A stretch of DNA of 59,851 bases, the filler included, from Sluysia triapertura (taxonomy: Eukaryota), in NCBI GenBank assembly GCA_046118255.1. It is 4 parts of 4 records of this genome, joined end to end, with 100 filler letters (N's around TTAATTAATTAA, not from the genome) between each part and the next. Parts side by side here need not be neighbours in the genome. Positions count along the whole stretch, not along the records: positions 1 to 22,539 come from JBJNIA010222909.1; positions 22,640 to 33,670 come from JBJNIA010189875.1; positions 33,771 to 46,266 come from JBJNIA010103765.1; positions 46,367 to 59,851 come from JBJNIA010037703.1. One strand, written 5' to 3'. This document shows positions 1,631 to 50,183 of the stretch, in pieces. The position numbers were made by a program, and so were the translations under genes. The notes under the pieces are model-generated. The model did no database searches and was not told the origin of the DNA. It was given only the letters and a program-made list of their open reading frames with translations. Each line of letters begins with the position of its first letter. The stretch's first letter is position 1.

Positions 1631-1688
1631 CTGTCATTTATGCATCGGTTCTTGAATGTGCAAGCCCAGTGTGTCATAGAGGACTCAC
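1631..1688 (-). ncRNA. Hairpin short-intron-like repeat (GTGAGT...AG family), copy 1
   Basis: Minus strand reads GTGAGTCCTCTATGACACACTGGGCTTGCACATTCAAGAACCGATGCATAAATGACAG (58 nt, GT..AG). It aligns by eye with the copies at 3310, 15049 and 35951. Confidence 0.55.
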
Positions 1689-2807
1689 AAATATAAACGT
1701 ATAAATAAAAATATTAAAGTTTTATTTATTTTCTATTTTCCAAACCAAATTCTCACACTATTTATAACTAATCCTTGTTTATATTATGATATTTTATGTG
1801 TTTCTTCACATTATTAAACTTGTAACTGTTAATTGAATTTTATTTAATATAGTTTTTTATGATAAAAGATTTTTTCTTTTATGGCATTAGTTGCATTAAC
1901 GGTTAACGATTAAATTACATAGTCACACTATCAATTCAAAATACACTAATATAATAAATTTTGGTCGATCTGTTCATATTGTTAATGTATAATTTTAAGA
2001 TGTAATAATTTCAAGTTATGCATATATTTTTTAAATAGTTAATATGCTAATAAATAATTGTTATTTTATTGTATTATCATTATTGAACAATTATTATTTA
2101 TTGTATTAATTATAAAATTTATTAAAAGTGTTTATTAATATTATTCTAAGATTAAAATTATTTATTAGTATTAATATAATGTTGCGTATATGTTATGTAA
2201 CAGTTGTAGTATGTCTGTATATCTGTAATCTGGTATTTTATGATCATTTAATTTTTATATATTTAATGATTTTTATTAAATGATTTGTATTAAATTAATT
2301 CTTATTAAATTATTATATTGAATTATTTGTTATATATTTTAATTGTTATTATAATTGCTAAATTATTATAATATTAATATTAATTATCATTTCATTTTAT
2401 AATTCTGTTTTAATATAATAAATTTAAAAAAAGATGGCATTCAATATTATAAATTTAATAAATAGAATAGGTGACATTATTTGATTGGTCAACAAAATCT
2501 ATAAATAAAGACGGTAAATTTCAGATAAGATTAATTAATAATTTTTAGTGAAGAATTAATTAAATCTTTGGAAACTTGAAAAATTAAAATTTTGGAGAAT
2601 TGAGAAATTCGAAGATTAACATTATTTTAAAATTATTTTTGGAAACAATAATAATTAACAATGCATAATCATTAGTTTCTTTTATTATAAAAACAAATTT
2701 AACTACCATACAATATACTTAAATTAAATAAGATCTTGTACAATTTTATATGACATAAATTCATTTCTTTAAAAAAATCAATATTAAAAAAAAATTAATA
2801 TTATAAA

Positions 2808-3214
2808 TTGTACTATCATTATAATTAGCAACAGCAACTTGAATACTTGGGAATTTTGTTAATATTATAAATAAAACTTTAATATTAATTTATTAAAATT
2901 AAGATCATAATTTTATAAAACTAGCGATCAAATACACTATTTTAATACATTTTGTCGGATATAACATTTTTTAATTCAATATTTTTTATTTCATGTATCG
3001 TCTGATTAAGCAACATTAATGTTAACGTTCTTTTAACATTACTTTGTTTTATTTTAATCAACTGTACTATTAAATATTTCTTGATTTATATTATAATCAA
3101 TTACACTATCAATTTATTGTCATAAATCCTTTAATGTCGTTTGATTTTTGTGTAAACAATTATACTATCAATCATTAACATTTACTTTATAATTTTAATA
3201 AAGTGTACCATCAA
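2808..3214. repeat. Spaced array of an AATTRYACTATCAAT-like motif
   Basis: Motif variants at about 2808, 2931, 3062, 3099, 3158 and 3202, separated by unrelated spacers. Also seen at about 1923, 12600 and 14747. Confidence 0.55.
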
Positions 3215-3309
3215 TATTTTCATTTTACGAGTTTTTGTTATTATATTAGTAACAATTGTAATACCTAATTAAGAAATTACACCTCCAGTTTTAATCTCTT
3301 TTCTTGACG

Positions 3310-3366
3310 CTGCAAATCTGTGTGCTGGCCCATCAGTGAGTAAGTCCAGTATCATAGAGAACTCAC
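3310..3366 (-). ncRNA. Hairpin short-intron-like repeat, copy 2
   Basis: Minus strand reads GTGAGTTCTCTATGATACTGGACTTACTCACTGATGGGCCAGCACACAGATTTGCAG (57 nt). It has a 5' splice consensus, a CTGAT branch-like motif and a TTTGCAG acceptor, and folds end-to-end leaving an AG overhang. Confidence 0.65.
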
Positions 3367-4199
3367 TTTAAAATATACAAAAGATCAACAATAAAATAAC
3401 AAATAAAAGAAAATAACATAACATAATATAGTTGGCAAAAATTTTTCAAATATAATAACTAGTAGATAAACATTAACCAATTATAACTAAAGAGAAAGAT
3501 TGTACCACACATTTCAACCTTAACCTATATATAACTAGTGCAAATTATCACAATATTTATAAAATCTAGAGCAAACAAATTATCTAAAAGTACTTATCAT
3601 ATAACTCATTTATATTATTTTTAGCGTTTCAAATTAGTCATAAAGATTAAATGACCTTAAAAGAAGCTCATTTGTCATCTCACATAATTATATAAAGATT
3701 TACAATTTTGAATAATTTAATTGTTTAAACCGCACAATTAATCATATAAAAATTTGCAACTAATTTTTTGAATTGATTGTTTAATCATACGATTTCAAAT
3801 AATTTGATATTTTGAATTTTTGACTAGTTTTTACGTGATTAAAGTTTTATCATTATTGAAAAAATCTTTTGGAAGATAACATTATTAATTTTATAAAATT
3901 CGTTAGTTTTGTTGATTATTAAATAACAAGTTTACAATGAACGATAAAATCACACATAATCTTTAATTAGTAATTATGTAACATTTAATTACTCATAATT
4001 TTGATTTTATAAATTTTCCAAATAAAAACATTATTTTGGCAAATAATATTGTTAATATTCAATATTATTAGAGTAATCGATCTATCTTAATTGATTATTT
4101 ACGATTTGAAAGACAAATCATTACAATTTTATTATTAATCTTTTATGATATTGAATTAGTGTTACATTTAAAATATTACACATGCAAAAAATTATAAAT

Positions 4200-7700: not shown

Positions 7701-8114
7701 TCGCTAATATTAATTTGACTTCAAAAAATAATGACTAGTCAGACAACCATAAAATAACACGATACTCAACAATACCATGTAAAGTACATAAACAACTTTA
7801 TCGTATTTTGAGTTCCTTAAACAACGTGATTTAAGTGCAACTTCATTAATATTTTATGTTATAAAAAAATTAACCAAAACAGCAAATCTATTAATACGTA
7901 TATTTCTATTCTTTCATTTTATTGATACAAGTAAAATCTGTTGTAAAAATTCTTTTGATAAGAATATTGATAAAATTTTTGTAATTAGCATCAATTTTAA
8001 TTCACAATTTACTTATACAAAATTTTATCGACACAATTCAGTACCATGCCGTATTTCAATTGATTTATCTGTGAGAGTGTGAAGTAAAGCAATAGAATAA
8101 AGTAAAAGCTTAAC

Positions 8115-8152
8115 GTGAGTTCACCAGCTATGGCCAGCTGTTGGATTTGTAG
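8115..8152 (+). ncRNA. Hairpin short-intron-like repeat, internally deleted copy
   Basis: GTGAGTTCACCAGCTATGGCCAGCTGTTGGATTTGTAG, preceded by AGAATAAA. Same subfamily as the 33381 copy. Confidence 0.55.
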
Positions 8153-8596
8153 ATAAGAGTAAAAAGAATTTCCTCGAAATGCAACGTTGATTAAAAAGGG
8201 ACTTCTTTATTTATTTTTATTATTACCTTTTGAGATTTTTAGTATTTTAGTATTAATTTTTGAAGGTTTGTAGTCAAAAATTAATTCAATTGATATTTTG
8301 CGTAGATCCTATGAAAAAGATCGTTGATAATTATTTTACGTAGTTAGAATTAAAATCTAACTATGGAAAGCTTTTTCGTAGTACTGATTTTATATTTAAA
8401 ACTATTAATAAGGACTAAAAAATGGTACCAAAAATTTTATTAAAAAATGATTAAAAAGTTTTTTACAAAGTGTAAGTAAAAATAATAATAAAGTTACTAG
8501 AAGTAATTCCAATTTCTATGATATTTTAATACATGATTTTTCGAGGATCGAATATAAGATCTAAAATGTTTATTAGATAGTTTAAGTGGATTTTTC

Positions 8597-8800
8597 GTGC
8601 ATATCCCTAGGATATCTGAACTTATTAAAAATAAACTAACGGATATTTTATTAAATCTGGTCAAAAATCTTTATTTTGATTCTCGATATATCGAAGAAGA
8701 ACCAATAAAAATACACGTTGATCGAATGTACCAAAAATTTATTGTCACGGCTTTATTAAAAATTTTATTATCAAAAAGATTATTGTTGAAAATTGTCTAA
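8597..8800 (+). pseudogene. Unknown ORF family C remnant
   Basis: C-terminus KFIVTALLKILLSKRLLLKIV resembles KFIVQVIFILRRLFLDNLK of ORF 49657-49863 (-). Both lie downstream of the same hairpin module. Confidence 0.35.
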
Positions 8801-15048: not shown

Positions 15049-15101
15049 CTGCGAATCTATGTGCTGGCCTTTCAGTAAGTCCAGTATCATAAAGAACGTA
15101 C
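15049..15101 (-). ncRNA. Hairpin short-intron-like repeat, copy 3
   Basis: Minus strand reads GTACGTTCTTTATGATACTGGACTTACTGAAAGGCCAGCACATAGATTCGCAG (53 nt, GT..AG). The downstream flank shares ACTGGAGG with copy 2. Confidence 0.65.
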
Positions 15102-15119
15102 GTTAAGAATAAGACATTT

Positions 15120-15688
15120 AATCTTAATCTCATAACTAATTTAATAACTTCAACATTTCAATTGAACTGTCTCATAGAAAGTCAATTATTCGAATATCAC
15201 GGTCGCAAAAGATATACGTCGGTACTTCCTATGGATAATATTACTTTATTAATTACTGAGAAACAAGATCTAAAACTCAACAGACCACTTTCTATGGTTA
15301 TGCTAGCATCTTAATAATTTGGTAAATCCCATTGCCATATGTACCGATTTTTAGCTAATGAAGAGCGACATATTATTGCGATAATATATGTAGCACCAGC
15401 GAAATTAGAACAATTACATTTTCACTAAAAGGAACCCGAAAATATTTGTCATTATCAGAAATGTTGAGAAACGATCCAGCATTTTTAATATTAATTTTAG
15501 CTGCAATATTATTTATCATCGCTCTATCGATAGTTATACTGGTAATTATTATGTTTATGTCAAATAGATGTAAATATCCGTGTTTACCTCCAAATAATGA
15601 TGACGATGATCGATATAATATCCCACACAGAAATAATCTTCAGCCACCACCAGGATTTCCAATGGCACCACCCCCTGTCTATGAATAA
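15120..15688 (+). pseudogene. Type I membrane protein with Pro-rich tail and PPxY motif (5' part frameshifted)
   Basis: The frame is open upstream of the annotated start (TYYCDNICSTSEIRTITFSLKGTRKYLSLSEMLRNDP). It has a long hydrophobic TM segment and a tail ending QPPPGFPMAPPPVYE*. An upstream frame LNLITNLITSTFQLNCL.. may be the N-terminus. Confidence 0.6.
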
Positions 15689-15712
15689 GCAACGGGAAAT
15701 TATACACCATTA

Positions 15713-16703
15713 ATGTATGGCGGATGGCAAATGACAAGTTTAAAATCAGTTATGATAGCATGTATATGTATGACATGTATAATTAACGTACATACAAAAT
15801 CAATAATTACATACGCAAATATACAAAGTAATATTCCTAAAAACACCAATATTTCCATGAGTTGTTGCTTAGCTAATTGGTGTAAACATGGATTAGATAT
15901 TAGTAAATATATCAGACATTGGGTAATGATGTGTAACGGACTTGTAGAAAATCAATTGTTTAATATTACTTTGGAGTTAGAATTTGAATTTGAACCAAAC
16001 CAAGATTCAGAAATTATATCAATGCATAATTATAGAATTAGAACAAAACCTTATGTTTTTGATCATTTATCAATGTCTATAAAATTTCCAATGTTACTAT
16101 ATAGGGAAAGAAATAATTTTGTAAAAATAACAAACCCATTAACAAAAGTGCTATACTAATTGGTTACGAAATAAACAAAAAGAACCCACCCAAAAAGGAT
16201 TTTGATGAATTATTTGATAAAGAACAGCATTATGAACTAATACTTCCTAAAACTGATATGTATCTATTTTTCGCATTCGAACAAAATCTTACTTTTATCG
16301 AGGTTTGGATTCTACGTCATAAAGAAATTCACAATATACTTGGATTTTGGCCAGAATATAGAGTGTGCGATTTACGTGTGCCAATTTTAGACAAATTAGA
16401 TATTATTCCTACTCCAAAACCAGCCAGCACTACTACTACATTTCGAACAAAGCAAAAGTCATTTATCCCAATACGGCTGTAACTTATTCGGACAATTTAG
16501 ATAAGAATTTAAGTCTACTGAACAAGACTAATTTACAGAAAAATATAACAAATGACAATATACTAGAATTTTACCACGTTATATTGAGTTACTATATCTT
16601 AACTTCATTTCTTTTTCTTATAACAGCAATACACATTATGTTACAGGCTAATAAGTTTTATTTATTTATTAGACATAGGAGTCATCTTTTTATAAAAACA
16701 TAA
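15713..16703 (+). pseudogene. ~325-aa type I membrane glycoprotein split by two frameshifts
   Basis: ORFs 15713-16159, 16258-16482 (frame open from ~16156) and 16365-16703 join into one protein: signal-like MTSLKSVMIACICMTCIINVHT, Cys-containing ectodomain, PTPKPASTTTT stalk, several N-x-S/T sequons, C-terminal TM and short basic tail. Confidence 0.6.
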
Positions 16704-16724
16704 ACTATGAATGAAACATAGAGT

Positions 16725-16775
16725 GTGAGCATTGGTATCGTCTGCTTACTGACCACATGCGACGGCTGTTAACTG
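16725..16775 (+). ncRNA. Divergent hairpin short-intron-like repeat upstream of the RING ORF
   Basis: GTGAGCATTGGTATCGTCTGCTTACTGACCACATGCGACGGCTGTTAACTG has a GTGAG start, a CTTACTGA loop and end-to-end pairing. It is followed by a second donor GTGAGT (16789) and an acceptor TTTTAG (16952). Confidence 0.4.
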
Positions 16776-16952
16776 TCCATTCTCGGTCGTGAGTAGATTG
16801 GTGTTGGGGCTTATACCTTGTTTCACAATTAGTATAACATTTCTATAAATATTGAAATCAATTTATTTAAATTTTATAGTATTTTTCTTTTTAATTAACT
16901 TCGTAACAAATTTTGTATTACATGTATTTATTAATCTATTATATGATTTTAG

Positions 16953-17439
16953 ACAAAATTCATCGTCTTCTCTTCGTTTACCCTATGTTCTGCCTGTAGG
17001 CGTTCTATTCACAGATACTACGCTTTGACTGTTCCTTGTAAACATAGATTTCATTTTCATTGTCTGTATTTCTTGTTTGAGTCTGCTCCAAATCCTTTTC
17101 CTTTTTGTCATGTGTCGTACAACAATTAAGGAATGCGAGATATATTATAAAAGAGTATTTTGTCGTTCGTACAAATTTACTATTGAATATATTACACCTG
17201 GTGCATCTACTGTAGCACAATTTGGACTTCATGAAAATTCTACAGTTGACGTTTTTCGACCTGACAATAATACAAAAGTTTCTGTTTTGTACAATGGTTT
17301 TAAAGTTCCTAAACCTAATTATCCACAAGGACTAACGAAGTCCCAAAAACGTAATTATCGCAGACGACAATTGAGGAAATTTTATAAAACAAATAGATAC
17401 TTAGTTAATAACCCTATTATTAAAAAAGAAAAAATATAG
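16953..17439 (+). pseudogene. RING-H2 finger protein with Arg/Lys-rich C-terminus (one frameshift)
   Basis: Frame from 16986 reads CSACRRSIHRYYALTVPCKHRFHFHCLYFLFESAPNPFPFC, then a frameshift at ~17109 leads into MCRTTIKEC of ORF 17077-17439. This gives a complete C3H2C3 pattern. The tail is GLTKSQKRNYRRRQLRK. Confidence 0.8.
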
Positions 17440-17535
17440 TCACTTCATAAATATCGATAATCATATTATAAATATTAATAACTAGTATTCTTGTAAGTCT
17501 AAATAGAAACTGTATAAATATTATATTTAATTATA

Positions 17536-18361
17536 GTGCTAACTCACAATTATAAAGACAAAATCACTTTTTCATTATTTTTTATGCGTTTCTTTTCTCA
17601 CTCTCACAATTTTAATACAAGAACTTCATCAATCAACAATCTTCAACCAAAAGCAAGAATCATCAACCAACTTAAATCCTTTTACATCTCCGTCGATAAA
17701 TATTGTTCTAATTTATCTGCCCCTGCCTTTTTTCCTGACTACTTTTCAACTGATTGCCAGCTGAAGAGTGAATTAACGTTAAGTGTGGCTACACACCTTT
17801 TTTCCTTAAATCCCGAAAACCCACATATTACGTTACGGGGTTTGTCAAACGCGCTGGATGACTTTGATACCCTTTATATAGCTGTTGTGCGATGGGTAAC
17901 TAAAATAAATCTAACTGTTGGCAGTGCTCCCCTTTTATTGAGAATTGAAGGTCCTTCCACTTTACATCTTTCCGCTCTGACACGTAATTGCGGGATTTTT
18001 ATAGAGGCTCTGGAGTTTCCAACCTCAGCTGCGCTTATTCCCCCACCATTCCTTTCTCCACTTAAAAATCTATTTATAAATGATACGGTCAACATGGGAC
18101 TTCTTTCACCCACATTCCCCCCTTATCAGCTGAAGATGAAGACAGACTTATTTTCGTAGCTTATCACTACGTCCTTGATTTCATAATGAACCCCAAATTA
18201 CTGGTATCGCCTACACCCCGTTGAGTAAACAATTTCATTACGAGGTGCATATTAAGCCACGTGCCCGCATAAAAAATTTCCTAAGGGACACTCAATCGAT
18301 TTCCCCCGAAAATCTGAGAGACCCCAAGGATATCGATAGCGTCAAGCCCTATCACTTTTAA
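17536..18361 (+). pseudogene. Unknown ~270-aa protein, GC-richer than flanks, frameshifted near C-terminus
   Basis: The 207-aa ORF continues after shifts as LSAEDEDRLIFVAYHYVLDF and HNEPQITGIAYTPLSKQFHYEVHIKPRARIKNFLRDTQSISPENLRDPKDIDSVKPYHF*. No motif recognised. Confidence 0.55.
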
Positions 18362-19109
18362 ATATAGTAAACTAAAGTCTTTCAAACCATTATATTCAAC
18401 GCATAAATCGTATTCTTAATTTTAAAACCTAAATAAATCTCAAGAATTTATTCTAACATTCTTCATTTCACTTACAACTTAAATCATTTCTTTTATCTTC
18501 AAAAATAAATTTAATACAGCTTTAAAGAATTCATTTCTTTATGATGAAGCAACAACTATAACTGAAGCATAGTATACCACGTTACCGTTGCTCCTTCACA
18601 TAATAGCAATAGTTCTTATTTCTCAATCAAGATTTAGAAAGAAAAGATCATGTTTTCAAGATTGTTAAGAAATTTTATGTAATTTACTTTTACTTTTACT
18701 TTTAACAATGTTGTTGTTATTATTATTATCAACCATTAAATTATTTTAATTTATTTGATATCAAAACAGTTGCTGCCATTATCAGTATTGACACTTCTGT
18801 TCATGATTTTTATTAATATGCCAATACTGATGATGGTTAACCATCAGAAATCACCACTTTTCAATACCATCCAAGCATGAATGATATTATTCAGCTTAAT
18901 TTTTGTTAGAGTCATGATTGGATGGCCAACCACAAACTACTTTTTGTGATCTAATGTTTCCGTTGAGCTTAGCGAAAGTTTGTGTAAAATTGTTCGTTGT
19001 TTAACAATATGTCGTAAATTCCTAGAGATTTAGGTACCAAATTATGTGATCGGCAAAATATACCAGAAACAATTATATGTGTTAAAGGATCTTTTTTTAT
19101 AATGCATAT

Positions 19110-20912: not shown

Positions 20913-20949
<37 letters not shown>

Positions 20950-22539: not shown

Positions 22540-22639
22540 NNNNNNNNNNNNNNNNNNNNNNNNNNNNNNNNNNNNNNNNNNNNTTAATTAATTAANNNNN
22601 NNNNNNNNNNNNNNNNNNNNNNNNNNNNNNNNNNNNNNN
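22540..22639. other. Assembly gap with TTAATTAATTAA spacer
   Basis: N-run with a central six-frame-stop linker. Identical gaps occur at 33671-33770 and 46267-46366. Confidence 0.97.
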
Positions 22640-22714: not shown

Positions 22715-23135
22715 AACAAAAATAGTAATAACAATTTGTAGTACAAACTAAAAATTATTACAATCTATTCATTGGAGCCAAAAATAGAGTGGAGTTAAAA
22801 ATTTTAGTGCCACAATTTAAATCCAGATAATATTTTAGACTTATATACCATCCATGCGGATTTCATTATTATCATCTATTTATCAAGCAAATCTCATTCT
22901 CAAAAAATTTGATACTAATTTGTTATATGGAATGTTTGTTAATGTAAAACAGTTACAATTGTAGTAGATCTACAAAAAGTTGCTGTTGATATATTTGGTC
23001 AGTATATCATGAGTACTGGAGAAAGTATGAGTCTTGCTAAACATGTATTAGCAATATGTTTCGTAAATAGTTCATTAAAAAATCCTTTTCAATGTCCACG
23101 AAAATTCACCATTATCTAATTATGAGTCCAAGCGT

Positions 23136-24242
23136 ATGTCTGAAATTACAATTCGTGCTATGAATGAAACTTCTACTAATTTATTGCCCTACCAATTAGA
23201 TAAAATTATTTATTCGTGTATGGATTCTGATAATGTTTTTGAACAAGGGCATTATGCCTCAGAAGGAGATTTCAATACAAGTTTATGGCATCAAACATTG
23301 GATTATGTAAAACAAGTACAACTCCTGAATTCGATCTTAGTAGATTCAAATGTACATGTACACATTAGAAAAGTAACGATAATCTCATATTTTAACGAAA
23401 GAGGATTCGTGATTTTAAACTTTAAAAACAATCCTTCTAAGAAAACTGTTAACGTAACAGATGAAATGGTTTCGGAGTCCGTAACAAGCAAAAGGTTATC
23501 GATTGTCATAGAAATTGCTCAAATGTCAAAGTATAAAACAATTATTGACAATAATGATCACATATTTCTACAAGCAGATTTTGTACAAAATGCACAAGAA
23601 CAAGTTAAAACTCATGGCTCTGCTGATTTTCTAGAAACTCGTAAGATTTCTAAATTTAATTTGTTAAACAACTTTGTAAATTATGATTTTAGTCATTTAT
23701 ATAATTATTTTCTAGATATGATTACAACGGTTTGGATTACACGGCACGCAACGGTCAAATACAGAAATTATAAAGACATCACAAGTACAAATAAAATTCC
23801 ATTGTGTGTAATAGATTTTAATGTTTTTTATTTAGTTTCTTTTATTTTAATTGAAATCTTTTTATTAAATGATAATGAATTAAAAATCGAGATTAGATGT
23901 ATAAATAGCCATTATATAAAATTGCTTAAGTTAAGGAAACAAATATATGCTCATAGATTTACTATTATCAATGATGCTCATAATCGAAATTCGGACACAA
24001 CTCTGGTTCTGCATTTTAATAAAACCTGCAATCAAAAGAATATTGAACAAATTATAAAATTCTTATATCTCATTTTACTACGACATGAATTAAGCTCTTC
24101 ATGTACGTACGTCAATTCTAAATTAATAATATATTCTCTTTATAATACTAATATAAACTTAACGCCCTCAACCATAACTTTATCACAATCTTTTCAACAT
24201 TTCATAACTATAACCCTCCAAAACGTTTATTTTAAAATTTAA
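23136..24242 (+). CDS. 368-aa intronless protein of unknown function (most intact member of family A)
   Basis: Longest ORF in the window, highly unlikely by chance at this AT content. A disrupted coding-like frame extends upstream (~22950-23120). A purine tract AAAAGGGTAGA followed by TGTAAAG at ~24787-24805 resembles a PPT/3' LTR start. Confidence 0.7.
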   Translation: MSEITIRAMNETSTNLLPYQLDKIIYSCMDSDNVFEQGHYASEGDFNTSLWHQTLDYVKQVQLLNSILVDSNVHVHIRKVTIISYFNERGFVILNFKNNPSKKTVNVTDEMVSESVTSKRLSIVIEIAQMSKYKTIIDNNDHIFLQADFVQNAQEQVKTHGSADFLETRKISKFNLLNNFVNYDFSHLYNYFLDMITTVWITRHATVKYRNYKDITSTNKIPLCVIDFNVFYLVSFILIEIFLLNDNELKIEIRCINSHYIKLLKLRKQIYAHRFTIINDAHNRNSDTTLVLHFNKTCNQKNIEQIIKFLYLILLRHELSSSCTYVNSKLIIYSLYNTNINLTPSTITLSQSFQHFITITLQNVYFKI

Positions 24243-25939
24243 ATGTTTATTAAAACGATCTATGAATAACGCTTATTCCTGGTTGTGATTGACGACTAAG
24301 AATAAATAAAAGTACATAATTGGAACCAGTATAAAAATAACATTTTTATGATATCACCTTACAACAAGTGGATATAGAAAAGTCATTTGGAAAAACATTG
24401 TAAAGCGGATAATTCGAGAAACATTCATTTTGTAATTTTGGAAACATTATTATTATCTGGAGGCTGCTGTCATTATAAATTATATCAAATCATTATTAGA
24501 AGTGGTATTTATTGGGAATCATATTGCGGAATTCGTCAAGTTACAAACATAAGTAAGCTAATTCTTGTAAGTGCATTGTTAAACTTTGCATTAAAATCAT
24601 TACGTAAATTTAATTCCGTTTATAACCCAAGAATTAATCCTGGGACAAACTCATTATTAAAATATCACTAAATTGTGTATTTATTTATTATAATTATTTA
24701 TTGATATTTTGATTTTGTTTTTTATGTTAAATACTCTTGTATATTCTTTTGTTAATTAATAAAATTTTGTTTATTAAAACCTTTTAAAAGGGGTAGATTG
24801 TAAAGGAAGACTGTGGTATTAGTTAAAACTATAATTGCTAGAGTCGAATTAGAGCATACTTGAATAGTTTCAGCAACCGAAAAGTTATATTATAGAATTA
24901 AGAAGCTAAACGTAAAGGATATAAGAAAATTATAGAAAATAATCTCAAAAAAATAGCAAACTTAATTAAGAAAGTTATTGACCCTTATATTCATTAAATT
25001 TTTTACTTTGATTAAATCCTGTGAACACATCCGTCGAAGATAAATCGTGTTACACAGGCGGACCCATTTTAAAGTAAATTTGTTTTTTATAATTGTTCCA
25101 AACTAGAAAGCGAACAAGATTAACATATAAGTACAACGTTGATAGATTCTTTGAATTAAAAATAATGTAAATATTTGTACCATTTTTTTAATTAGGTTGC
25201 TTCAATTAAGTGAGAATTGGGAGCTAACATAAACATTTTTCTGAAACATGCATTAAAAGAAGTTCGCACTTTAATAAACCCGATACATAAAACAAATACT
25301 TAGAGAATAAATTTTTGATTAAAATAAACGAAATTATGATTGTCTTATTATAATACACTTTATTTAAGTTAATATTTTACCTTTTCTTCACTCATTGATT
25401 TTAATAATGTTAATTAAATTTAATTCATTATCATATTTAAATTCAATAAGCTTCTTACAACTCATAAAATTATAAAATTAAAATAATTAGACTAAAATAA
25501 AGTTAAATAATTAAACTGACATATTTCTTACAAATTATGCATGTTTATAATATTTATATTTTTGCCTAAACTATAAAAATTACATGTATGTTATTTGTTT
25601 TAATTTTTTTGTAGTTATAGAATAAAAATTTATTTTATTTAAATAAAAAATCAATATTTTCTCATTATAAAAATTAAATTTACTGAAACATTGTTATATA
25701 ATAATATTAAAATGGAAGATTATTATTTTTTATTTATGATGTATTGCATTTATTGTATTTATTTATTTAAAATTTATTTATTTTAAATTTCATTTTTTAA
25801 GAATATTATTATTATTATTATTTATCTCAGAAATATTAGTTTAATATGTATTTTAATTACAAATATTTTAATGTTTTGGTTTTAATTGTTCATTTTAAAT
25901 ACAGTGTTTACAATTTTTTTTAATTTTTCAAATTTTACC

Positions 25940-28900
25940 ATGCTTAAAGCTGAAATAAATTATTTAATTTTACTGTTTGAAAAAAATCCAGAACATAACT
26001 TGTCCATTCCAAAAAAATATCTGTGTCATGCCTGTAACAAATTAATGATCATTTCATATCGATATAATAAGAACAATTTCTGTTGGCGGTGCGCACCGTA
26101 AGTATTTTTGATTTTCATTTTTTTAGTAAAAAACTTTAAAATATTAATTTAACTTAATTTTAAGAGAAAATTTTATTTTTATTATGTTGGAATATTAACT
26201 CATTTATTTATTCTTGTAATATTGTTATAATCTTCATTTTCGACATCTTCATCTATTCTGGATTTAGTTTCTTCGGATTTCATTTTCTTTAATAATCGTT
26301 GGCTCAAGTTTTCATGTTTGACAATGAAGCTATCCTTTAACTCGTACTAGCTTGCTTAAGATTGGTTTTATCACATGTATTTGTAGATCATGGTCGGAAT
26401 TTTGTAACAGTTTTGGGTGACTTTCTTAGCTATTTTTATAATCTTTGTGGTTCGTATGAATCTACACTGAAAATGCATTTTTATAGAATTTTATTCAAAC
26501 GAATTCGAAATAGTTTTAATATTTTTGTGCTATATTAATATCAAGATACAAGACATTCAAACTTTGCCTTATTTAAGAATTCCTATCTGGAAACTTTTCA
26601 CTGCGAAACATTTGTGACATCAAATGATGTGTTTACAAAACCAGATGTCGTTCTCCACAGAAGAGTTACTTAAATTACGTGACAAATTTTTTCTTTTAGA
26701 TAGCAAAACAAGAATTATTCGATCTATTTCACACCAATGTTTTGTCAATTTTTAAAAATTGTGTACGAAAGATGCAGCAGTTTCAAATGGTGCAGGATTT
26801 TATAAACTAATATTACTCATTTATTATTGAAAATGTTTAAGATATTGTGTCAAAAGCAGCAGACATCCAACAAAATAATCACAACACATTTATTCTTAAG
26901 ATAGCTGTGTTTGTGTTGAGTGATAAGCTGGTACACTGGTACGTTGAGATTTTGACAATTGTTGTAAAATAATAACCAAAATAAGCTTTGTGAAAATTGA
27001 ATTATTTTTGATAAGTTCGGTTGGTATTGGATCAATAGAACTCGTATTTGACATTTCCGACAATCTTTATTAAATCGTTTTCATTAATTATCTTAAATTC
27101 AAATTCATTTATGTTTTTATTTTGTAGTTCTAATTTAATATTTAATTTATTAATGCTATTTTGTATATTTTCTACTTAAGTTACAAAAACTTTTTAATAT
27201 TTTATCATTTCCATTTTTTGCCAAATAATTTACTTAGTAATTTATAGATATTTTTAATATTTGATTTATTAATTCTAAATAATAATATTAATGAATAAGA
27301 ATAATAATTTTCCAGGTTTTGTAGTATCATGCAATGTGTTGTATTCTGATCATATATAAAGCTGAATTATACAAAAACATTAAATAAAATAGACAGTTAA
27401 TATAATCAGTTTTAGCCTAAGTGAAGCCAGAAAACGACCACCATCAACAGATAATTGAAAAGAATTTTTACTTGATTCGATATCGGTACAACTGATCAAT
27501 AAAATAACAAAATAAAATTTTCTTAGTAAAGAAATAATTTGAAATAAATTTGTGATTTAAATTAATTAAGAAAAATTTATTTACACCATTAATTCAGTAG
27601 AAAATAACATTTATATTTATGAGAAGGATATGGCACATTTACATGCAACATAGTACAGTAAGTTTACTTATTGATCAGTTATATTAAACTATATTATAGT
27701 TATAACGAGTAATGAATTATACTAATAATCGTCACAATATCATTAGTTAATTTAACACTAGAAGGGCCAGAATTGACGCAAATGCTTGCAATTGGCTGAT
27801 ACTTTCATAAGTGTGTTGGAAGTAAGGTTATGATACCATGGTAATTTTGTTGAGGTAAAAAGGCCTAAGGTGCCATTTGGTAAAATTGACTATAATAAAA
27901 TAAAATCGTTAGACGGGGCTGATACCTCAGTGGTACATCATCGAACTGTGTAGCTAGGGGTCCCGGGTTCAATCCCCGGTCAGTACTTTTTACGATTTTC
28001 CCATGTAAACTCGGTGATGTCATTACTCAAATATGTCATTTGCGTCAATTGACGCATTTGGTCTTTCTAGTGTTAATATATTACCCTTAAAATCTATTCT
28101 ATACTTTCGAAAAGCAATCTTAAGTTTACTTCACATTGTTTTTGTTTAATTAGTTTATTTTATTATTATTTCTTGAACTGTAGAAACAGCTACTTTAAAT
28201 TACAATAACATAATGGAAAATCTTTGTATTACATGAGTGTAATAAAACTGCTTCTATAAAAGTTAAATTAAAATCACATAGTACAGTCAATTACTATGGC
28301 AAACTCATAAAAAAACTAGTAGAATTTGTTTTGATTTTTTATACTTTGATTTAAGTTATTCTACGTTATTTTAATTTAATGTAAATTTCGAAAAGTTCTT
28401 TTAATTTGATTTTGTTTTTGATATATTTTGTGCTTCGAATAATACTTTTATATTACGATTTTCATTTCTCGAAAAATTTGATTTTAAATTTACGATTTAA
28501 TTTTGAATGTTTTTTGTTTGTATATTTTTGTATATGTATTGGAGGTTAATTAAAGTTTATCTTTATGCAAGTTTTCGAACTTATTTCTTGTCTATGTTTA
28601 TTCTTTTTTGATTCCTACTTTTTATAGTTAAATTATGACCTTGAACGTGTTTAAAACAAAAATAAGTAATTATTATTTAATTTATATTTTATAATATTAA
28701 AATTTATTATTCCAATACTCATCAGTTATAATTTTATTATCTTTACAATTAATAAAACATTGAATATAAATAAAACTTTTTTAATAAAACTTGTTAAAAA
28801 TCAATAAAAAATTAACTTACCAAAAATCAGAGAATTTAATAACTTTAACATCGGGTTGAAAATCGATAAATTTATAATTAACAGTATTATTCGTTCGTCT

Positions 28901-30286
28901 ACTTAAACTTTTAGCATTTTGCGCGTATAAGCGGCATTTGCCTTAAATTCATTCCCATGGCTAAAGATATAAATAGATTGATTTGAGCAAATAAACATAA
29001 CTAATTTATGATTATTTTATTACTCATACTACTTATTATTGCCTAAAAAATTTAAAATTCTTTAAAAAGAACATTTTATAATATATGTTTAATTTAAGTT
29101 TATAAAAGCCCTATTTATTAAAATTCCAATGAATTTTTTTAATTAAAACTATATTATTTGTTAAAATAGTACTTCAAACTCATTTTTGTGAAAACTGATA
29201 TTCTATTTCGAGTTATCCTTTATTATTCATTGAAATGTCAATATTTATTTGGCGAATTTTGTTAGATCTAAATTAATTAAAATTAATATCACAAATTTAG
29301 ATAATTCGAAAATATAATAAGAAATTAATATGAATTCAAAGAAAATATGACTAATAAATTAATATTTTGAATAAATTTTTATAAAGAAACAAATTTTAAT
29401 GATTTTATCTTATTTCAGATGTAATGATCCTGTGGAATGCGATGGTTTGTTTTAATTTACTATAATCTACTCAATTTTAGCAAATTTATTTTTAACCTGT
29501 ATTTTTCGGGATCTTTGTGCTCAACCTAAATTTTGTTAAAATTTTATGTGTTTTGAAATTACTTTTAATATTTTGCTGAGATTTTAAGTAATATGGAGTT
29601 TAAGTAATAATTATTTTGTTAAGAACACAGAAGTTTAGAATTTTGTGAGAATAAATTCCTTTAATTTAATTTATTTAAAAATTTTCCAATTTATTTTTTA
29701 TTGAATGTCAAACTTAGACTTATTGATATTATCTTTATTCAGCAAACGCTCATATTAACCTTGAAATACAAGATTTGTTAATACCGTGTTTCAATGATGG
29801 TTGTAAAGAAGAATGTTATTTAAAAAATATGGTTAGCGTTATAAAAAATCTTACAGTTATTTTAATATTAACAAAATATTTAAATTTTTATTTGAAAATT
29901 ATTGTTTTGTATAATTTGAGATTGAACATGAAAAAGTTTGTCCTCATTTAAAAATAATTTGTGATGAACCAGTGTGCAGTGGTATGTATAAACGAAAAGA
30001 TAAAGAAAGACATGAGCTTTTTGATTGTATAAATCGTAATGAAACGGTTCCTATATGTGAATCTGGTGGCATCTCTAATGCCTTAGAAGAAACTTGGGAA
30101 GTCAAATTTGATGATCTTGACTTAGATAAAAATTTATCTATGAAATTTCGAAGTGGATTAATAATATCTCTTCGAATTGAATATGAAGATATAAAATATC
30201 TATCGATGATGTTAAACTATGAAGCTAGATATGAAAGAAATGCACGAATTATTTTGCGGAGTCCAAATAGGATTCCATGTAGTTAG
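25940..30286 (+). CDS. TRAF-like RING/zf-TRAF protein; exons 25940-26097, 29419-29444, 29743-29831, 29921-30286
   Basis: Phase-consistent splicing (2,1,0) gives ..KYLCHACNKLM..FCWRCAPCNDPVECDANAHINLEIQDLLIPCFNDGCKEECYLKNMIEHEKVCPHLKIICDEPVCSGMYKRKDKERHELFDCINR.., the TRAF RING-linker-zinc finger pattern. No MATH domain seen. The last acceptor is GAG. Confidence 0.8.
26840..27050 (-). mobile_element. Non-LTR (L2/CR1-type) reverse transcriptase fragment
   Basis: SIDPIPTELIK, AYHSTQT and IILLD/SAAFDTI match LDPIPTxLLK, AYRxxHSTET and VLLDLSAAFDTV of L2-clade RTs, with large internal deletions. Confidence 0.75.
27756..28072. mobile_element. piggyBac-type MITE (317 bp) with TTAA target duplication
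   Basis: TTAA|CACTAGAAGGGCCAG..AATTGACGCAAATG on the left. The reverse complement of the right end is TTAA|CACTAGAAAGACCAAATGCGTCAATTGACGCAAATG. Confidence 0.85.
27916..27986 (+). tRNA. tRNA-like pseudogene/Pol III cassette (nominal anticodon GTG)
   Basis: A-box TACCTCAGTGG, perfect T-arm CCGGG-TTCAATC-CCCGG, acceptor stem GGGCTGA/TCAGTAC, and a TTTTT terminator at 27987-27991. D and anticodon stems do not pair. Confidence 0.65.
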
Positions 30287-30968: not shown

Positions 30969-31036
<68 letters not shown>

Positions 31037-33216: not shown

Positions 33217-33274
33217 GCAGAGTTCACCTACGATTATAGATTCACGCACTTAAGGGTTTGTTCGTAGGATTTAG
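33217..33274 (+). ncRNA. Hairpin repeat, tandem upstream copy
   Basis: GCAGAGTTCACCTACGATTATAGATTCACGCACTTAAGGGTTTGTTCGTAGGATTTAG, with stem CCTACGA/TCGTAGG. Confidence 0.6.
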
Positions 33275-33380
33275 AAATGTACAATATTTGAAATGTGATC
33301 TGACAAAATGAATTGTAGAATCGGTGTTTTTGCTGTTGTAAGAAAATGTCACGTAAAGTGTGCAGAATAAAAAATAAAAG

Positions 33381-33437
33381 GTGAGTTCACCAACGTATTG
33401 GGCTTACTGAAAAAACGGCCAACCGTTGGATTTATCG
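33381..33437 (+). ncRNA. Hairpin short-intron-like repeat, 57-nt copy
   Basis: GTGAGTTCACCAACGTATTGGGCTTACTGAAAAAACGGCCAACCGTTGGATTTATCG, with stems CCAACG/CGTTGG and TTGG/CCAA. Preceded by AGAATAAA. Confidence 0.65.
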
Positions 33438-33537: not shown

Positions 33538-33636
33538 CGGTTCTTACTCGGAACCGGTAATGATTTTGATAAGGTTCTTAAATAGAACCTATGAATTTAT
33601 GCAAAATAGTTTGATGAGGTTCTTACGCAGAACCTG
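33538..33636 (+). repeat. Three tandem GGTTC-N7-GAACC stem-loops
   Basis: CGGTTCTTACTCGGAACCG, AGGTTCTTAAATAGAACCT and AGGTTCTTACGCAGAACCT with different spacers. Confidence 0.8.
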
Positions 33637-33802
33637 TTCTTTAATAATTTAGATTTTAGACAAAATAGAANNNNNNNNNNNNNNNNNNNNNNNNNNNNNN
33701 NNNNNNNNNNNNNNTTAATTAATTAANNNNNNNNNNNNNNNNNNNNNNNNNNNNNNNNNNNNNNNNNNNNAATTTTTATTTAATTTCTATTTTCTACAAA
33801 TT

Positions 33803-33837
<35 letters not shown>

Positions 33838-35950: not shown

Positions 35951-36006
35951 TTGACATCTATGTATCGGCCATTCAGTGCGTAAGTGCGGTGTCACAGAGA
36001 ACTCAC
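35951..36006 (-). ncRNA. Hairpin short-intron-like repeat, copy 4
   Basis: Minus strand reads GTGAGTTCTCTGTGACACCGCACTTACGCACTGAATGGCCGATACATAGATGTCAA, followed by the shared ACTGGAG flank. Confidence 0.55.
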
Positions 36007-45800: not shown

Positions 45801-46849
45801 TACAAAAGTATTATGAAATTAAATTAATTAAAAAAATAATAAAATTTATGAAATTAAAAAAAAATTTTAATAGAAATAATAACCGAAAATTAAAAATTAA
45901 TAAAAATAATTATAGAAATAAATAAAGTAATAATGTAGTAATTATTGTTTAAAAAAATTAAATTAAATTAAGAGTAAAAATTACTTCAATTATTAAAGTA
46001 ATTTAAAGATTAAATTAATAATTATAAAATTTATAAATTTATGAAATTGAAAAAAATTACTAATGGAATTAATAATTGAAAATTAAAAATAGTAATAACA
46101 GTAAATATAGATATAAATAAAATTAATAATAATAGTAATTGTAATATTAATTGTAGTATTGTTAATAATAATAATTATAATGTTAGATTTGCTACGATTC
46201 TGGGTTATACCTAACCTACGATGCAAATAAGCCTAGATGAGTTCGACCTAATAAGAACGACTTAAGNNNNNNNNNNNNNNNNNNNNNNNNNNNNNNNNNN
46301 NNNNNNNNNNTTAATTAATTAANNNNNNNNNNNNNNNNNNNNNNNNNNNNNNNNNNNNNNNNNNNNTTCTTATTTCAACGAAGTTTATAATACTTCATCT
46401 GTTACTTCTCATCAATTCTTTCTTCATTTGTAATTCTATATATTCTTTACTCGTCTCTTAATCTAAAGTTGGGCAATCCCAACAAATTCACATAAAATTC
46501 ATCCACAAATATATTCTAAACATCATCACATGTAATATACATTTCAAAACCTACAATAAATTCGTCAATATACAAATTGTAATAATTAATATCAGGAATG
46601 TTCTTGCCAGTATTGTCTCCCTCACTACACTACGAAGAGCATTGCACTACACTGCATTTTCTTTTTATGTTTACAGATGTGAATTATGCATGTACAAAAT
46701 TTGTCTTTAACTTTTTCATTCAGCTAATTTCATTTTTATAACGATACTGTATTTTTTTAGTTTTTCTTTAAATAATTGAAATTATTGTGACATTTTAAAA
46801 CAGTTTACGTCACCTTCTTATAAAACTTTTAAAAATTATATTTTGAATT

Positions 46850-47290
46850 TACATGACTGCTGAAGGTAGTAAATGTTGTCAGATGAAAGACAGTAACAGA
46901 TTAGCATTTACAGTAAATATGTTGATTTTAACTAAATGTCTGAAGATTTCTGGATCTACAAAATCAGTTGTAGATCTACAAAAATTATTGTCAGAGCATT
47001 CACAACAAAATTTAATGACGTGATACAGTTTTATTATAATACTTGTAATAAGTGTTATAGATTGTGCGTCAAATCAAGCTTTATTTAATCTTTTAACGAT
47101 AAATTGAAATTTTTAACTCTAGTAATAATCTGGAATATGAAATTAAATAGATAATAAAAGCTAATTCAAACATAATGCTTAGTGAACTGATCCAAGAGGT
47201 CAATAAAATTTCGATTAACAGATTTAAATAAAGTTATTATTAAACATTAATAAAGTTTAACTAGAGTTATCATTAAACAGTTACTAAAAT
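46850..47290 (-). pseudogene. Unknown ORF family A, degraded copy
   Basis: ITLFKSVNRNFIDLLDQFTKHYV resembles LTLSINKKVNFMTILNQYLKHLL (56022-56204). Confidence 0.35.
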
Positions 47291-48205
47291 TATTGATTTT
47301 ATTTCGTGTTTTGGATCAATAAATAGAACAAGTTTTTATTTCTGTTTTAGACCTTTAAGAATAATAGGCTTTAAGCCGATTTGTAATTTAAAAAATTTTG
47401 AATTTTATAATACAGAACTGGACCTTACAATTTTGTAAAAATAAAAATATTCTACAAATACTTTAAATCACCAAATAATCAAGTCTCGACTATATCAGTA
47501 ATTATTTTGTATTTTAATATTAAACAAACCAAAACACACCGAATAATCAAATAAATGTGTCATGTTTAAATTCGAAGTCGAATATTTTGTCAAGGTACAA
47601 ATTTGTTAAATTTGTGTAATTTGTATTATAATAATGATAATGTTGAAATGGTGATAATGTGTAATGGCAATAGTGTTTGTAAAATAATAGTAACGATAAT
47701 AATATTGACTTAAAATAGTAATTATAATAATAATTTAAAAAGTATTCTTAAATAAAAGAGTTTAAATTTTTTGAATTAAATTCTATTTGGAATTACAATT
47801 GTAATTAAAAAAGTTTAATTTTAAATTCAATTACTAATTGATTACTACAAGTTTGTCGGTACGATATGTCTAATATTGAATTTATAAAATGTGTAAAATT
47901 TTTATCGTCCTTTGAAAAATCATAGATTTTTTGAGTTATTTATTTTTTAATAACTCAAAAATGGATTTTACTTCATTATTTTTTCTTTCTTTAGATAAGT
48001 TTAGCTGAATGAAATTTAGATTGACCATTAAAATTATTTCGATATTATTTGAGTTTGAGTTTTATTAAGTCGAGTAAAAATAATAGATTATCGACAAATA
48101 CAGATTGAAAAAAGCTCGTAAAGTAAGTGTTACAGTTTTCATTATTATTATTGTTGTTGGTTTCTTCTATTAGATTAATTAACCTTACAGAATAAAAGTA
48201 TATCT

Positions 48206-48259
48206 AGGAGTCCACCGACTTATCTAGGCTTATAGGGTATGGCTAGATGGTCGGATTTT
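48206..48259 (+). ncRNA. Hairpin repeat copy lacking splice dinucleotides
   Basis: GAGTCCACCGACTTATCTAGGCTTATAGGGTATGGCTAGATGGTCGGATTT, with stems CCGAC/GTCGG and ATCTAG/CTAGAT. AGAATAAA lies upstream. Confidence 0.6.
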
Positions 48260-50142
48260 TTATTAAGATAACTAATGGACGTCAACTTCTAAGACGTTTA
48301 AATGAAGGTTCATTTCTTCTATGTAATTTTGCGATTGTGTTATTTAATATTTCTACTTAGATAAACAATATTATTATTGTTAAACAGGAATCTTTTGATA
48401 ATATTTTATAATATTGGAGTCGGAAAACCAACTAAATCAAATGTTTTTAATTATATTAATTTATTTTTATAACGTGGTACTGTAAAACCAACTATGGCAA
48501 TAAGTTAATTTTTTTAGTGTTACTTATATATTATTCAAAAATGCTTTATAACAATTTATATTTTACAAATCCAATAAAAATTTTACACATTCCTTAATGT
48601 ATGTCCTATTATCAATTTATGTCAATAATAATTACACAAAATTAATTTTAATATATTTTCGTAAATAAAATTTAATAAACAAAAAATCTAAAAGATATTA
48701 ATAAACAAAAAATTTTAATGTGTTTGAAAAAAGTTTCAATATTTGAAAATAATTGAAAATAATTATAGCGAAAATAATATATAATTAAATAATTTTAAAA
48801 TTTAAATTAAAATGTTAAAATTTGTTTAAAATATAAATCTCAAGTACAAAACAAAAATATCAGACAGACACATAGAAAATTAGTTTTGTCTCTCGGTATA
48901 TTAAAAAGAATTCACATAATATCAGCTGTTAATTCCTTCTCTGTATATTGGAACAATTCATTTATTTCATTTATATATCAATGATCCAGCTAAAAACTTT
49001 TTAAATATTATTTTTATTATTATTATTATTATCAGTATTATTTTTATTAATATTTTTATTATTTTTCAGATTATTTCTGTTAACATTATTTATTATTATC
49101 ATTAATGTTATTATTACCATCAATATTATTATTACTGTTAGAAAGAATGTGTAAATTATATATTGGCTAATATATTGATTTATATGAATAATTATTATTT
49201 TAAATGTTGATTATTAACATTATCTGTATATTGGAATTGTTTAAATTATTATTGGAAACATTTTAATTGGAATTTTATTTAATTTTAAAATGTAAGTATT
49301 TAATAAATTTTTTAAAATAAAATTTCAATTAAATGTTATTTAATTGATTTTTTAATTTGTTTAATTAAACTAAAGTAAAATTGTTAAGAAAAGGTCAGTA
49401 GTTTTAGTATAAATAGTAATTCTTCAATAAATTTCACTCACAACAATAACACAAGTTTTTCAACATTATTTTAACAATTCAACTAGATCAATTTTAACTC
49501 AAAAAATACAATTTTTGCTGTTTAATTATCGTTAGTTTGATAAGTTGCGCTACATTTTAAGCCGCAACAAAAACTACGCTAAAAATCTTTTTTTAATTTA
49601 AATTTTCAGTTAGCTTTTAAAATGTTAACTAAGAAAAATATCATTTTAATTTTGAATTACTTAAGATTATCAAGGAATAATCTACGTAAAATAAATATTA
49701 CTTGGACTATAAATTTGAATAAGCTTGTATCATATTTTATTATTTGAGTTATGAACTTACCCGTTCTATATTTATTTGCATTTGCATTGATATATTTTCC
49801 TAATTGATTTTTATTTTCGATAACATATAAAGAAAAAAGGTTTACACTAACAAAATTTTTCATAATTGATTTTGGTCCATTTTTTAAACTGTTTTATTTA
49901 AAACCAGAGTAAAACTATATTTAAACGATATTTGAATTTTATATACTTAACGCTTTCTTTTAATTTCGAAACCAAAGAAAAATCTATTGATTTAACCCAA
50001 ATATATTTTAAAATATCGTTTAGGATCCCTTTAAAGAAGATCCTTATCAAAATATTAACTTTGATAATAAGAATACATAAGTTTTCATTACATAATTCCA
50101 TTGAGAAAAATTATTAAAACATCCTTAAGTATTATCTTACTT

Positions 50143-50183
50143 CTAAATCTAAGGGCTAGCCCTAACTCGTAAGACTAACTCAC
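50143..50183 (-). ncRNA. Hairpin repeat, deleted copy
   Basis: Minus strand CAGAATAAA..GTGAGTTAGTCTTACGAGTTAGGGCTAGCCCTTAGATTTAG, followed by an AGGATC..GATCCT hairpin (~50020-50045) and ORF 49863-49657. Confidence 0.5.

What the first reader, a model, noticed from the sequence alone, without database searches (positions are those of the whole stretch)
1631..50183. Dispersed family of ~55-nt GTGAGT...AG hairpins with compensatory base changes (mirtron-like introns on a repeat)
Seen: about 10 copies on both strands (1631-, 3310-, 8115+, 15049-, 16725+, 33217+, 33381+, 35951-, 48206+, 50143-). They share GAGTYC at the 5' end, a CTTA(C)-type loop (often CTTACTGA) and GATTT near the 3' end. Stem sequences diverge while pairing is kept: CCAACG/CGTTGG, CCTACG/CGTAGG, CCGAC/GTCGG and TCTATG or TCTGTG/CATAGA for the outer stem; TTGG/CCAA, CTGG/CCAG and CTAG/CTAG for the inner stem. 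Full-length copies are 51-58 nt, five have exact GT..AG ends, and in copy 3310 the 5' GTGAGT pairs with the 3' ATTTGC leaving a 2-nt AG overhang. Established: this is the geometry of canonical mirtrons, short introns that fold into pre-miRNAs after debranching. Inference: a mobile-element family carries a structured short intron in its 5' leader, possibly producing small RNAs or regulating its own splicing; the GGACTTAC segment can also pair with and mask the GTGAGTTC donor. Alternatives are an LTR R/U5 hairpin (AGAATAAA often lies just upstream and TGGAGG about 25-30 nt downstream) or an unclassified ribozyme.
Basis: partly seen in the sequence, partly recalled or inferred. Interest (0 to 1): 0.9.

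Follow-up and report, generated by a model that had tools for sequence, protein, structure and literature searches.

The report
Two-state hairpin capping high-copy repeats
A 57-base hairpin whose paired letters change together between copies occurs ten times in this AT-rich animal DNA, and it is likely the folded RNA start signal of an old, very abundant jumping element rather than a microRNA-producing intron.

Summary
The hairpin family is real: 9 of the 10 listed sites are members, 16725 is not supported, and a tenth copy (25010-25067, minus) was found. Both nested stems covary (permutation P about 0.001). A third pairing, the 5' GTGAGT segment with the loop segment RCTTAC, holds in 44 of 48 cells, with 13 G.U and no A.C pairs; the held-out copy keeps all three helices with new letters. 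Contigs of one run pile up thousands-fold on the first ~40 bases and drop at the first G. The mirtron reading is not supported: only 3 of 8 full-length copies have GT..AG, and the four best-paired copies lack it. No Rfam family fits; hammerhead, HDV-like and Helitron2 features fail. Best reading (0.4): an RNA-level, two-state fold marking the 5' end of an old mobile repeat, possibly self-cleaving. Main rival (0.28): a single-stranded DNA end signal of a Helentron-type element. No RNA data were available. Earlier scan notes describe what is probably the same family elsewhere in this genome; the third helix and the intron test are what this report adds.

The parts
3310..3366 (-). full-length copy, subfamily II (outer stem TCTATG type); closest to the high-copy form; GT..AG, 57 nt
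15049..15101 (-). full-length copy, subfamily II; 53 nt; GT..AG; 5' segment partly decayed
35951..36006 (-). full-length copy, subfamily II; inner stem decayed; ends AA, not AG
1631..1688 (-). full-length copy, subfamily II, decayed; GT..AG; downstream flank alike to 36006 for about 200 nt
33381..33437 (+). full-length copy, subfamily I (CCAAC/GTTGG); all three helices intact; GT start, no AG end
33218..33274 (+). full-length copy, subfamily I (CCTAC/GTAGG); no GT start; 163 nt before the next copy
48206..48262 (+). full-length copy, subfamily I (CCGAC/GTCGG, CTAG/CTAG); first pair A-T instead of G-C; neither GT nor AG
8115..8152 (+). internally deleted copy (38 nt), subfamily I; loop segment lost; GT..AG
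   Evidence: (E 0.006)
50143..50183 (-). internally deleted copy (41 nt), subfamily I-like; weak model score
   Evidence: E 0.007; E 0.09; E 4.2
33364..33371 (+). AGAATAAA word upstream of subfamily I copies (4 of 10 copies; example shown)
3282..3287 (-). TGGAGG word after an A-rich linker downstream of the hairpin (6 of 10 copies; example shown; also in loose-end consensus of 26 contigs)
33538..33635 (+). three small perfect hairpins (GGTTC..GAACC) 157-254 nt downstream of copy 33381; probable second module of the same element
50022..50044 (-). related small hairpin (GGATC..GATCC, compensated) about 140 nt downstream of copy 50183

Best explanation
This is a real, very high-copy hairpin family that likely folds as RNA in the GTGAG sense and likely marks the 5' end of the transcript of an old mobile repeat, where it would define, possibly by self-cleavage, the point at which copying stops. 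Shown in the sequence: an outer stem B (positions 10-14 with about 45-49), an inner stem C (about 18-21 with 39-42), and a 5' segment A (1-6 or 1-8) complementary to the start of the loop; unpaired GTYC (8 of 8), GG (7 of 8) and AT after the stem (8 of 8) stay fixed while stems change. Inferred from helix geometry, not modelled: A, B and C cannot all form at once because only 1-3 bases link A to B across some 11 base pairs, so the RNA would have two states, an A+B pseudoknot (or A hairpin) and a B+C hairpin. Inferred by analogy with the twister variants at the 5' end of Schistosoma Perere-3: a structure at the RNA 5' end fixes the 5' junction of each new copy, which explains the sharp edge at the first base of helix A. 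Most genomic copies are decayed relics; the compensatory changes likely record divergence of active lineages. Catalysis, transcription and the mobilising enzyme are untested.
For: Stems B and C covary (permutation P 0.0012 and 0.00045). Helix A: 44 of 48 cells paired, 13 G.U, 0 A.C; read on the other strand only 31 of 48. The held-out copy 25067 keeps all three helices with different letters; a strict descriptor gives 2 real hits against a mean of 0.02 in 300 shuffled windows. First pair is G-C in 5 copies and A-T in 2. A-hairpin and B+C folds lie within 2 kcal/mol in 4 of 8 copies (the 33218 row there used wrong offsets, corrected for pair counts). Summed contig depth 65,284 at 3332 against about 7-17 for single-copy contigs, falling to 2,103 at 3378; 64 contigs break exactly at the first G. 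DNA-parameter folds are weak (-1 to -10 kcal/mol). Flatworm precedent: PMC8501958, passages.
Against: Helix A covaries only weakly (permutation P 0.03), so two independently conserved words could mimic it; G.T is also tolerated in single-stranded DNA. For subfamily II the opposite strand folds more stably in 4 of 4 copies. Subfamily I shares AGAATAAA 9-13 nt upstream, so its edge is not at the first G. No reverse transcriptase, 3' tail or target-site duplication was linked (direct repeats in flanks no longer than in cross pairs; Pfam read-through covered only 46367-59851 and gave 0 families). No known catalytic core. Depth is summed over contigs and is no true copy number. Looser descriptors are barely above chance (13 vs mean 7.7; 29 vs 21).
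Confidence: 0.4

Rival explanations
1. Single-stranded DNA end signal of a non-autonomous Helitron2/Helentron (HINE, DINE-1-like) element: helix A is the 5'-terminal hairpin, or, read on the other strand, B+C is the 3' stem-loop, recognised by a RepHel protein during rolling-circle transposition.
For: Sharp edge with a T-rich flank in the high-copy subfamily (64 contigs, agreement 0.56); TTAA at -5/-6 in 6 of 10 (P 2e-6). Helitron2 has a 5' hairpin 0-2 bp from the end, compensatory changes, and a proposed switch between two pairings (PMC3627910, passages); DINE-1 has an inverted repeat 3-22 bp from the 5' subTIR (PMC4067079, passages). Small palindromes downstream of two copies. A Helitron helicase remnant lies in the window (read by eye output, unlinked). 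Earlier AI notes reached this reading; not independent evidence.
Against: No inverted copy of the first 11 bases followed by a hairpin within up to 8 kb downstream of 9 copies (3 hits at 2 mismatches, about 1.8 expected, none before an evident hairpin; some scans cut short by gaps). T at -1 in only 3 of 10. No 11-18 nt terminal inverted repeat (PMC11417382 criterion). Helix A is wobble-rich and DNA folds are weak. Shared sequence continues on both sides in subfamily I.
Confidence: 0.28
2. 3'-end stem-loop of a stringent LINE/SINE family read on the opposite strand (loop GTAAG), bound by the element's reverse transcriptase and followed by an A-rich tail.
For: On the opposite strand subfamily II is followed by A-rich sequence, and depth is highest next to it and falls away from it; that strand folds better in 4 of 4 subfamily II copies.
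Against: Subfamily I has T-rich, conserved sequence there; helix A would break (31 of 48 paired) although it is kept in the held-out copy; no RT remnant seen, though the scan was incomplete.
Confidence: 0.12
3. A short spliceosomal intron in the element's leader, self-masked by helix A, and possibly a mirtron.
For: GTGAGT start and TTTGCAG end in copy 3366; TGCAG kept in the loose-end consensus of 39 contigs; AG in register in 6 of 10 copies; a fold with a 2-nt AG overhang exists.
Against: 3 of 8 full-length copies have both ends; the four best-paired copies lack them; the end pairing is G.U-rich and not the minimum-energy fold in 3366, 1688 or 33381; CTRAY in 1 of 10; no joint skipping the stretch among 15 of 16 joints shown.
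Confidence: 0.08
4. Double-stranded DNA feature: a tiny TTAA-flanked inverted-repeat element (piggyBac- or Kolobok-type MITE) or a symmetric protein-binding site, with arm covariation from co-evolving binding sites.
For: TTAA upstream in 6 of 10 and 1-3 nt after the end in 4 of 9.
Against: The ends are not inverted repeats beyond 2-6 bases; shared sequence (A-rich linker, TGGAGG) continues past the right TTAA; no empty site among the joints shown; strand asymmetry of helix A is unexplained.
Confidence: 0.07

Closest known systems
Twister-variant ribozymes at the 5' end of the non-LTR retrotransposon Perere-3 (Schistosoma mansoni; PMC8501958, passages seen)
   Same: Short structured motif in many copies in an AT-rich flatworm genome, with a sharp 5' edge at the start of the first helix and variable sequence upstream.
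   Different: No twister match in Rfam; different helix order; no APE/RT frame or target-site duplication found; activity untested.
Helitron2 / Helentron / HINE / DINE-1 ends (PMC3627910, PMC4067079, PMC11417382; passages seen)
   Same: 5' hairpin near a T-rich edge, compensatory changes, two alternative pairings, high copy number.
   Different: No 3' inverted repeat plus hairpin found, T at -1 in 3 of 10, wobble-rich helix, three interlocking helices instead of a plain palindrome.
Canonical mirtrons (PMC5953923, passages seen)
   Same: About 55-nt, G+C-richer hairpin; some copies run GT..AG.
   Different: Splice dinucleotides are lost where pairing is best kept; thousands of dispersed copies; ends pair weakly; no host gene shown.
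HDV-like ribozymes of R2/L1Tc-type retroelements (structure recalled; role at the R2 5' junction seen in passages of PMC8501958)
   Same: A 7-bp first helix starting with a purine at the 5' edge, crossed by a second helix.
   Different: Only 5-7 bases lie where P3 and L3 need about 13 (recalled figure); no Rfam match.

Membership tests
canonical mirtron | hairpin ends coincide with GT and AG splice sites | tested here: not met
   3 of 8 full-length copies; 0 of the 4 best-paired
canonical mirtron | whole intron folds into one hairpin with paired ends and a short overhang | tested here: inconclusive
   long hairpin is the minimum-energy fold in 15101, 48206, 33218, not in 3366, 1688, 33381, 36006; overhang fold only under constraint
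canonical mirtron | splice-junction reads and ~22-nt arm reads | not testable with these tools
   no RNA holder listed
Helitron2 / Helentron (HLE2) | 5' inverted repeat 0-2 bp from the end forming a 5' hairpin | tested here: inconclusive
   helix A starts at the sharp edge of subfamily II, but subfamily I shares sequence further upstream
Helitron2 / Helentron (HLE2) | 3' inverted repeat followed by a stem-loop | tested here: not met
   9 copies, up to 8 kb or the next gap, <=2 mismatches in 11 bases; decay could hide it
Helitron2 / Helentron (HLE2) | T at the end and insertion between T and T | tested here: inconclusive
   T at -1 in 3 of 10, TT within 4-6 bases in 6 of 10; no empty site seen
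Helitron2 / Helentron (HLE2) | autonomous RepHel partner with the same ends | not testable with these tools
   no genome held
hammerhead ribozyme | CUGAnGA core (motif recalled) | tested here: not met
   absent on both strands from -80 to +120 around 10 of 10 copies; no Rfam hit
HDV-like ribozyme | P3-L3 element between P2 5' and P1 3' strands (recalled) | tested here: not met
   5-7 bases at that place; no Rfam hit
twister, twister sister, pistol, hatchet, hairpin and other Rfam families | match to the family covariance model | tested here: not met
   5 matches at E<=5 in the window, none at a copy, none at gathering score
any self-cleaving ribozyme | site-specific self-cleavage in vitro | not testable with these tools
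   needs a bench assay
LINE/SINE 3' stem-loop (opposite strand) | A-rich or simple-repeat tail directly after the hairpin | tested here: inconclusive
   A-rich for subfamily II, T-rich for most of subfamily I
TTAA MITE (piggyBac/Kolobok type; features recalled) | terminal inverted repeats inside a TTAA duplication with unrelated flanks | tested here: not met
   shared sequence continues beyond the right TTAA; ends not inverted

The most novel reading that the evidence does not exclude
An undescribed class of small self-cleaving or switching RNA, a pseudoknot whose 5' segment pairs with a splice-donor-complementary loop (ACUUAC), present in thousands of copies, that sets the 5' end of a mobile RNA in this animal lineage and has diversified into at least three stem-sequence lineages.
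Probability: 0.15. Interest if true: 0.85.

Novelty: new variant of a known kind. Interest (0 to 1): 0.5.

Why it matters
Structured ends of mobile elements are a known kind of thing, so the default value is moderate. What lifts it: three interlocking helices with fixed unpaired letters, no Rfam family, a copy number in the thousands, and a held-out copy that keeps all pairings with new letters. That makes it a cheap, direct candidate for a new ribozyme or RNA switch class; one in vitro transcription would decide it. If it is instead a Helentron end, it would show an unusually complex recognition fold. It is unlikely to be a mirtron family.

Tried and rejected
No RNA holder listed for the stretch searched; says nothing on expression. 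No genome held. Rfam: nothing at any copy. Pattern scans: viral contigs 0, 0 and 3 hits; metagenome contigs 24 hits; none matched the model (0 at E<=1 in 24 loci; best 10 bits in 3 loci), so all are treated as chance. Prokaryote genome collection not scanned. Pairing or duplication of flanks: self pairs no better than cross pairs, so a pri-miRNA lower stem and target-site duplications are unsupported. Tandem duplication of a 163-nt unit at 33218/33381: flank similarity not significant (16 of 150 decoys as high). Longer shared flanks: only 1688/36006 clear (z 4.7); 4 of 44 pairs at <=5 of 150 decoys, near chance. Sites 16725, 16789, 46183, 31896, 15171, 7299 and 44349 inspected and rejected as members. 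Ciliate or TGA=W codes give no sign of a gene-dense region. Protein searches to place the organism or fetch more copies found nothing: TRAF-like frame (longer proteins only), 387-aa frame. Pfam read-through of 1-46266 gave no result, so that part was scanned only as 20 chosen frames across the window. Literature searches listed no paper describing this motif (listings only); a 2026 ribozyme preprint has no flatworm, Helitron or pseudoknot term in its main text, and its supplements could not be seen and may bear on novelty.


Full report
Setting. The window is about 23% G+C, consists of four pieces joined by 100-base linkers, has no CpG depletion and few long frames. No genome is held. A weak TRAF zinc-finger match (E 0.0024, below cutoff) fits an animal; earlier scan notes call the genome a flatworm, which I did not verify.

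The family is real. The listed sequences are present. A sequence HMM finds nine sites and nothing else below E 9; left out in turn, 5 of 9 are recovered at E<0.01, two weakly and two not. A covariance model built from seven copies adds 8110-8155 (E 0.006) and an unlisted copy at 25008-25072 on the minus strand (E 0.29); 16725 is not among its 18 matches. So there are ten members in about 59.6 kb: eight full-length (53-58 nt, 40-48% G+C) and two internally deleted. Copies 3366, 15101, 36006 and 1688 form one subfamily, 33381, 33218, 48206, 8115 and probably 50183 a second, and 25067 has a third set of stem letters.

Structure. On the seven-copy alignment 84.5% of cells pair, 0 of 500 shuffles reach that, and slid controls give 23-40% (this shuffle ignores relatedness). 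With hand-set registers on eight copies, outer stem B pairs in 38 of 40 cells and inner stem C in 29 of 32, both far above permuted partners (P 0.0012 and 0.00045). The third helix A, the 5' segment with the start of the loop, pairs in 44 of 48 cells with 13 G.U and no A.C; on the other strand only 31 would pair. Its covariation is weak (P 0.03), but the first pair is G-C in five copies and A-T in two, and the held-out copy keeps it over seven pairs with new letters. A strict three-helix descriptor finds 33381 and 25067 against a mean of 0.02 hits in 300 shuffled windows; looser versions are near chance. Unpaired GTYC, GG and AT are fixed in 8, 7 and 8 of 8 copies. Single copies are not unusually stable. 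The A hairpin and the B+C hairpin are within 2 kcal/mol in 3366, 36006, 1688 and 33381, whereas B+C wins clearly in 15101, 48206 and 25067. From helix geometry (inference) A, B and C cannot form together, so the fold would be an A+B pseudoknot or a B+C hairpin.

Abundance and edges. One public run holds the DNA, type not on record, perhaps the source itself. Its contigs laid at 80% likeness on 1300-3700 give summed depth 65,284 at 3332 and 13,587 at 3320 against about 7-17 for exact single-copy contigs, and 2,103 at 3378. This is no true copy number but indicates thousands of relatives. Ninety percent of the depth at 3320 carries the letter that restores stem B. Sixty-four contigs break exactly at the first G, with a T-rich flank in the GTGAG sense; downstream loose ends keep TGCAG, an A-rich linker and TGGAGG. 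In the window, TTAA sits at -5/-6 in 6 of 10 copies, AGAATAAA upstream in 4 of 10, TG[GA]AG[GA] downstream in 6 of 10. Small compensated palindromes follow 33381 (three) and 50183 (one) at +140 to +250. The hairpin is therefore the best-kept part at or near one end of a longer, old repeat, not a stand-alone 53-mer in every copy.

The mirtron reading. Canonical mirtrons are introns whose ends are the hairpin ends (PMC5953923, passages). GT..AG is present in 5 of 10 copies, but in only 3 of 8 full-length ones, and in none of the four whose stems B and C are fully paired apart from 15101 (33381, 48206, 33218, 25067). Pairing is kept where the splice dinucleotides are lost. CTRAY occurs in 1 of 10 bodies. 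The overhang fold of copy 3310 is 1.9 kcal/mol above its minimum. No joint skipping a GT..AG stretch is among the 15 of 16 joints shown, a weak point as the run may be DNA. The high-copy subfamily does keep GTGAGT and TGCAG, so a splice role in that lineage is not excluded. I put it at 0.08.

What it most likely does. A strand-biased, wobble-rich, two-state fold with fixed unpaired letters and a sharp edge at the first base of its first helix is what a 5'-end RNA structure of a mobile element looks like. In Schistosoma, twister variants sit at the 5' end of Perere-3 next to the target-site duplication and cleave (PMC8501958, passages); hammerheads occur in schistosome repeats (PMC8490949, passages). 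This motif is none of those: no Rfam match, no hammerhead core, no room for HDV P3-L3 (recalled feature). I commit to an RNA-level 5'-end signal (0.4), with self-cleavage at about 0.15 overall. Against it: no RT, tail or duplication was linked, subfamily I shares upstream sequence, and subfamily II folds better on the other strand.

Main rival. Helitron2 ends have a 5' hairpin, compensatory changes and a proposed pairing switch (PMC3627910); HINE/DINE-1 insert in T-rich DNA (PMC4067079; PMC11417382). The edge and T-rich flank fit, but no 3' inverted repeat with stem-loop was found and T precedes the motif in only 3 of 10. It works like such an end in some respects, but membership is not shown (0.28). 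A LINE/SINE 3' stem-loop on the other strand (0.12) and a TTAA MITE (0.07) fit one subfamily or one feature each.

Known or new. Scans of viral and metagenome contigs gave only chance hits. Nine literature searches (listings) showed no description of the motif; PMC6154101 (passages) and a 2026 preprint on about 150 new ribozyme classes (abstract, outline and a term search; supplements not seen) gave no match. Earlier scan notes describe 45-56-nt covarying hairpins with GTAAG in the loop on other pieces of this genome, probably this family read on the other strand; sequence look-ups did not confirm the identity. Verdict: real, new variant of a known kind (structured end of a mobile repeat), interest 0.5.

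Noticed in passing
window 23079-24242 (+): Intact 387-codon frame with no Pfam family and no relatives in three searches; it ends about 770 nt from the intact hairpin copy 25010-25067, which points towards it from the other strand. A link is untested.
   Followed up: partly
window 27884-27966 and 53035-53118 (+): Two copies of a repeat, 80% alike, with a tRNA-like look by eye; probably a SINE. ARAGORN found no tRNA.
   Followed up: no
window about 51300-51830 (+): Broken pieces in three frames resembling the C-terminal part of a Helitron PIF1-type helicase, read by eye (motifs recalled); Pfam gave 0 families.
   Followed up: partly
window 18766-18851: Long, nearly perfect hairpin shaped like a pre-miRNA; weak MIR172 match below threshold.
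   Followed up: no
window 15362-18159 (+): G+C-richer cluster of orphan frames, some with hydrophobic or signal-like stretches, starting about 260 nt upstream of copy 15101 on the opposite strand; no Pfam match above cutoff.
   Followed up: no
   Followed up: partly
window 29915-30283 (+): Frame with a weak TRAF zinc-finger match (E 0.0024); no longer relatives found.
   Followed up: partly
window 58507-58728: 21-base tandem repeat, 10.6 copies, open on both strands.
   Followed up: no
window 22540-22639, 33671-33770, 46267-46366: Identical 100-base linkers (44 N, 12 letters with stops in all frames, 44 N): assembly joins, so distances across them mean nothing.
   Followed up: yes
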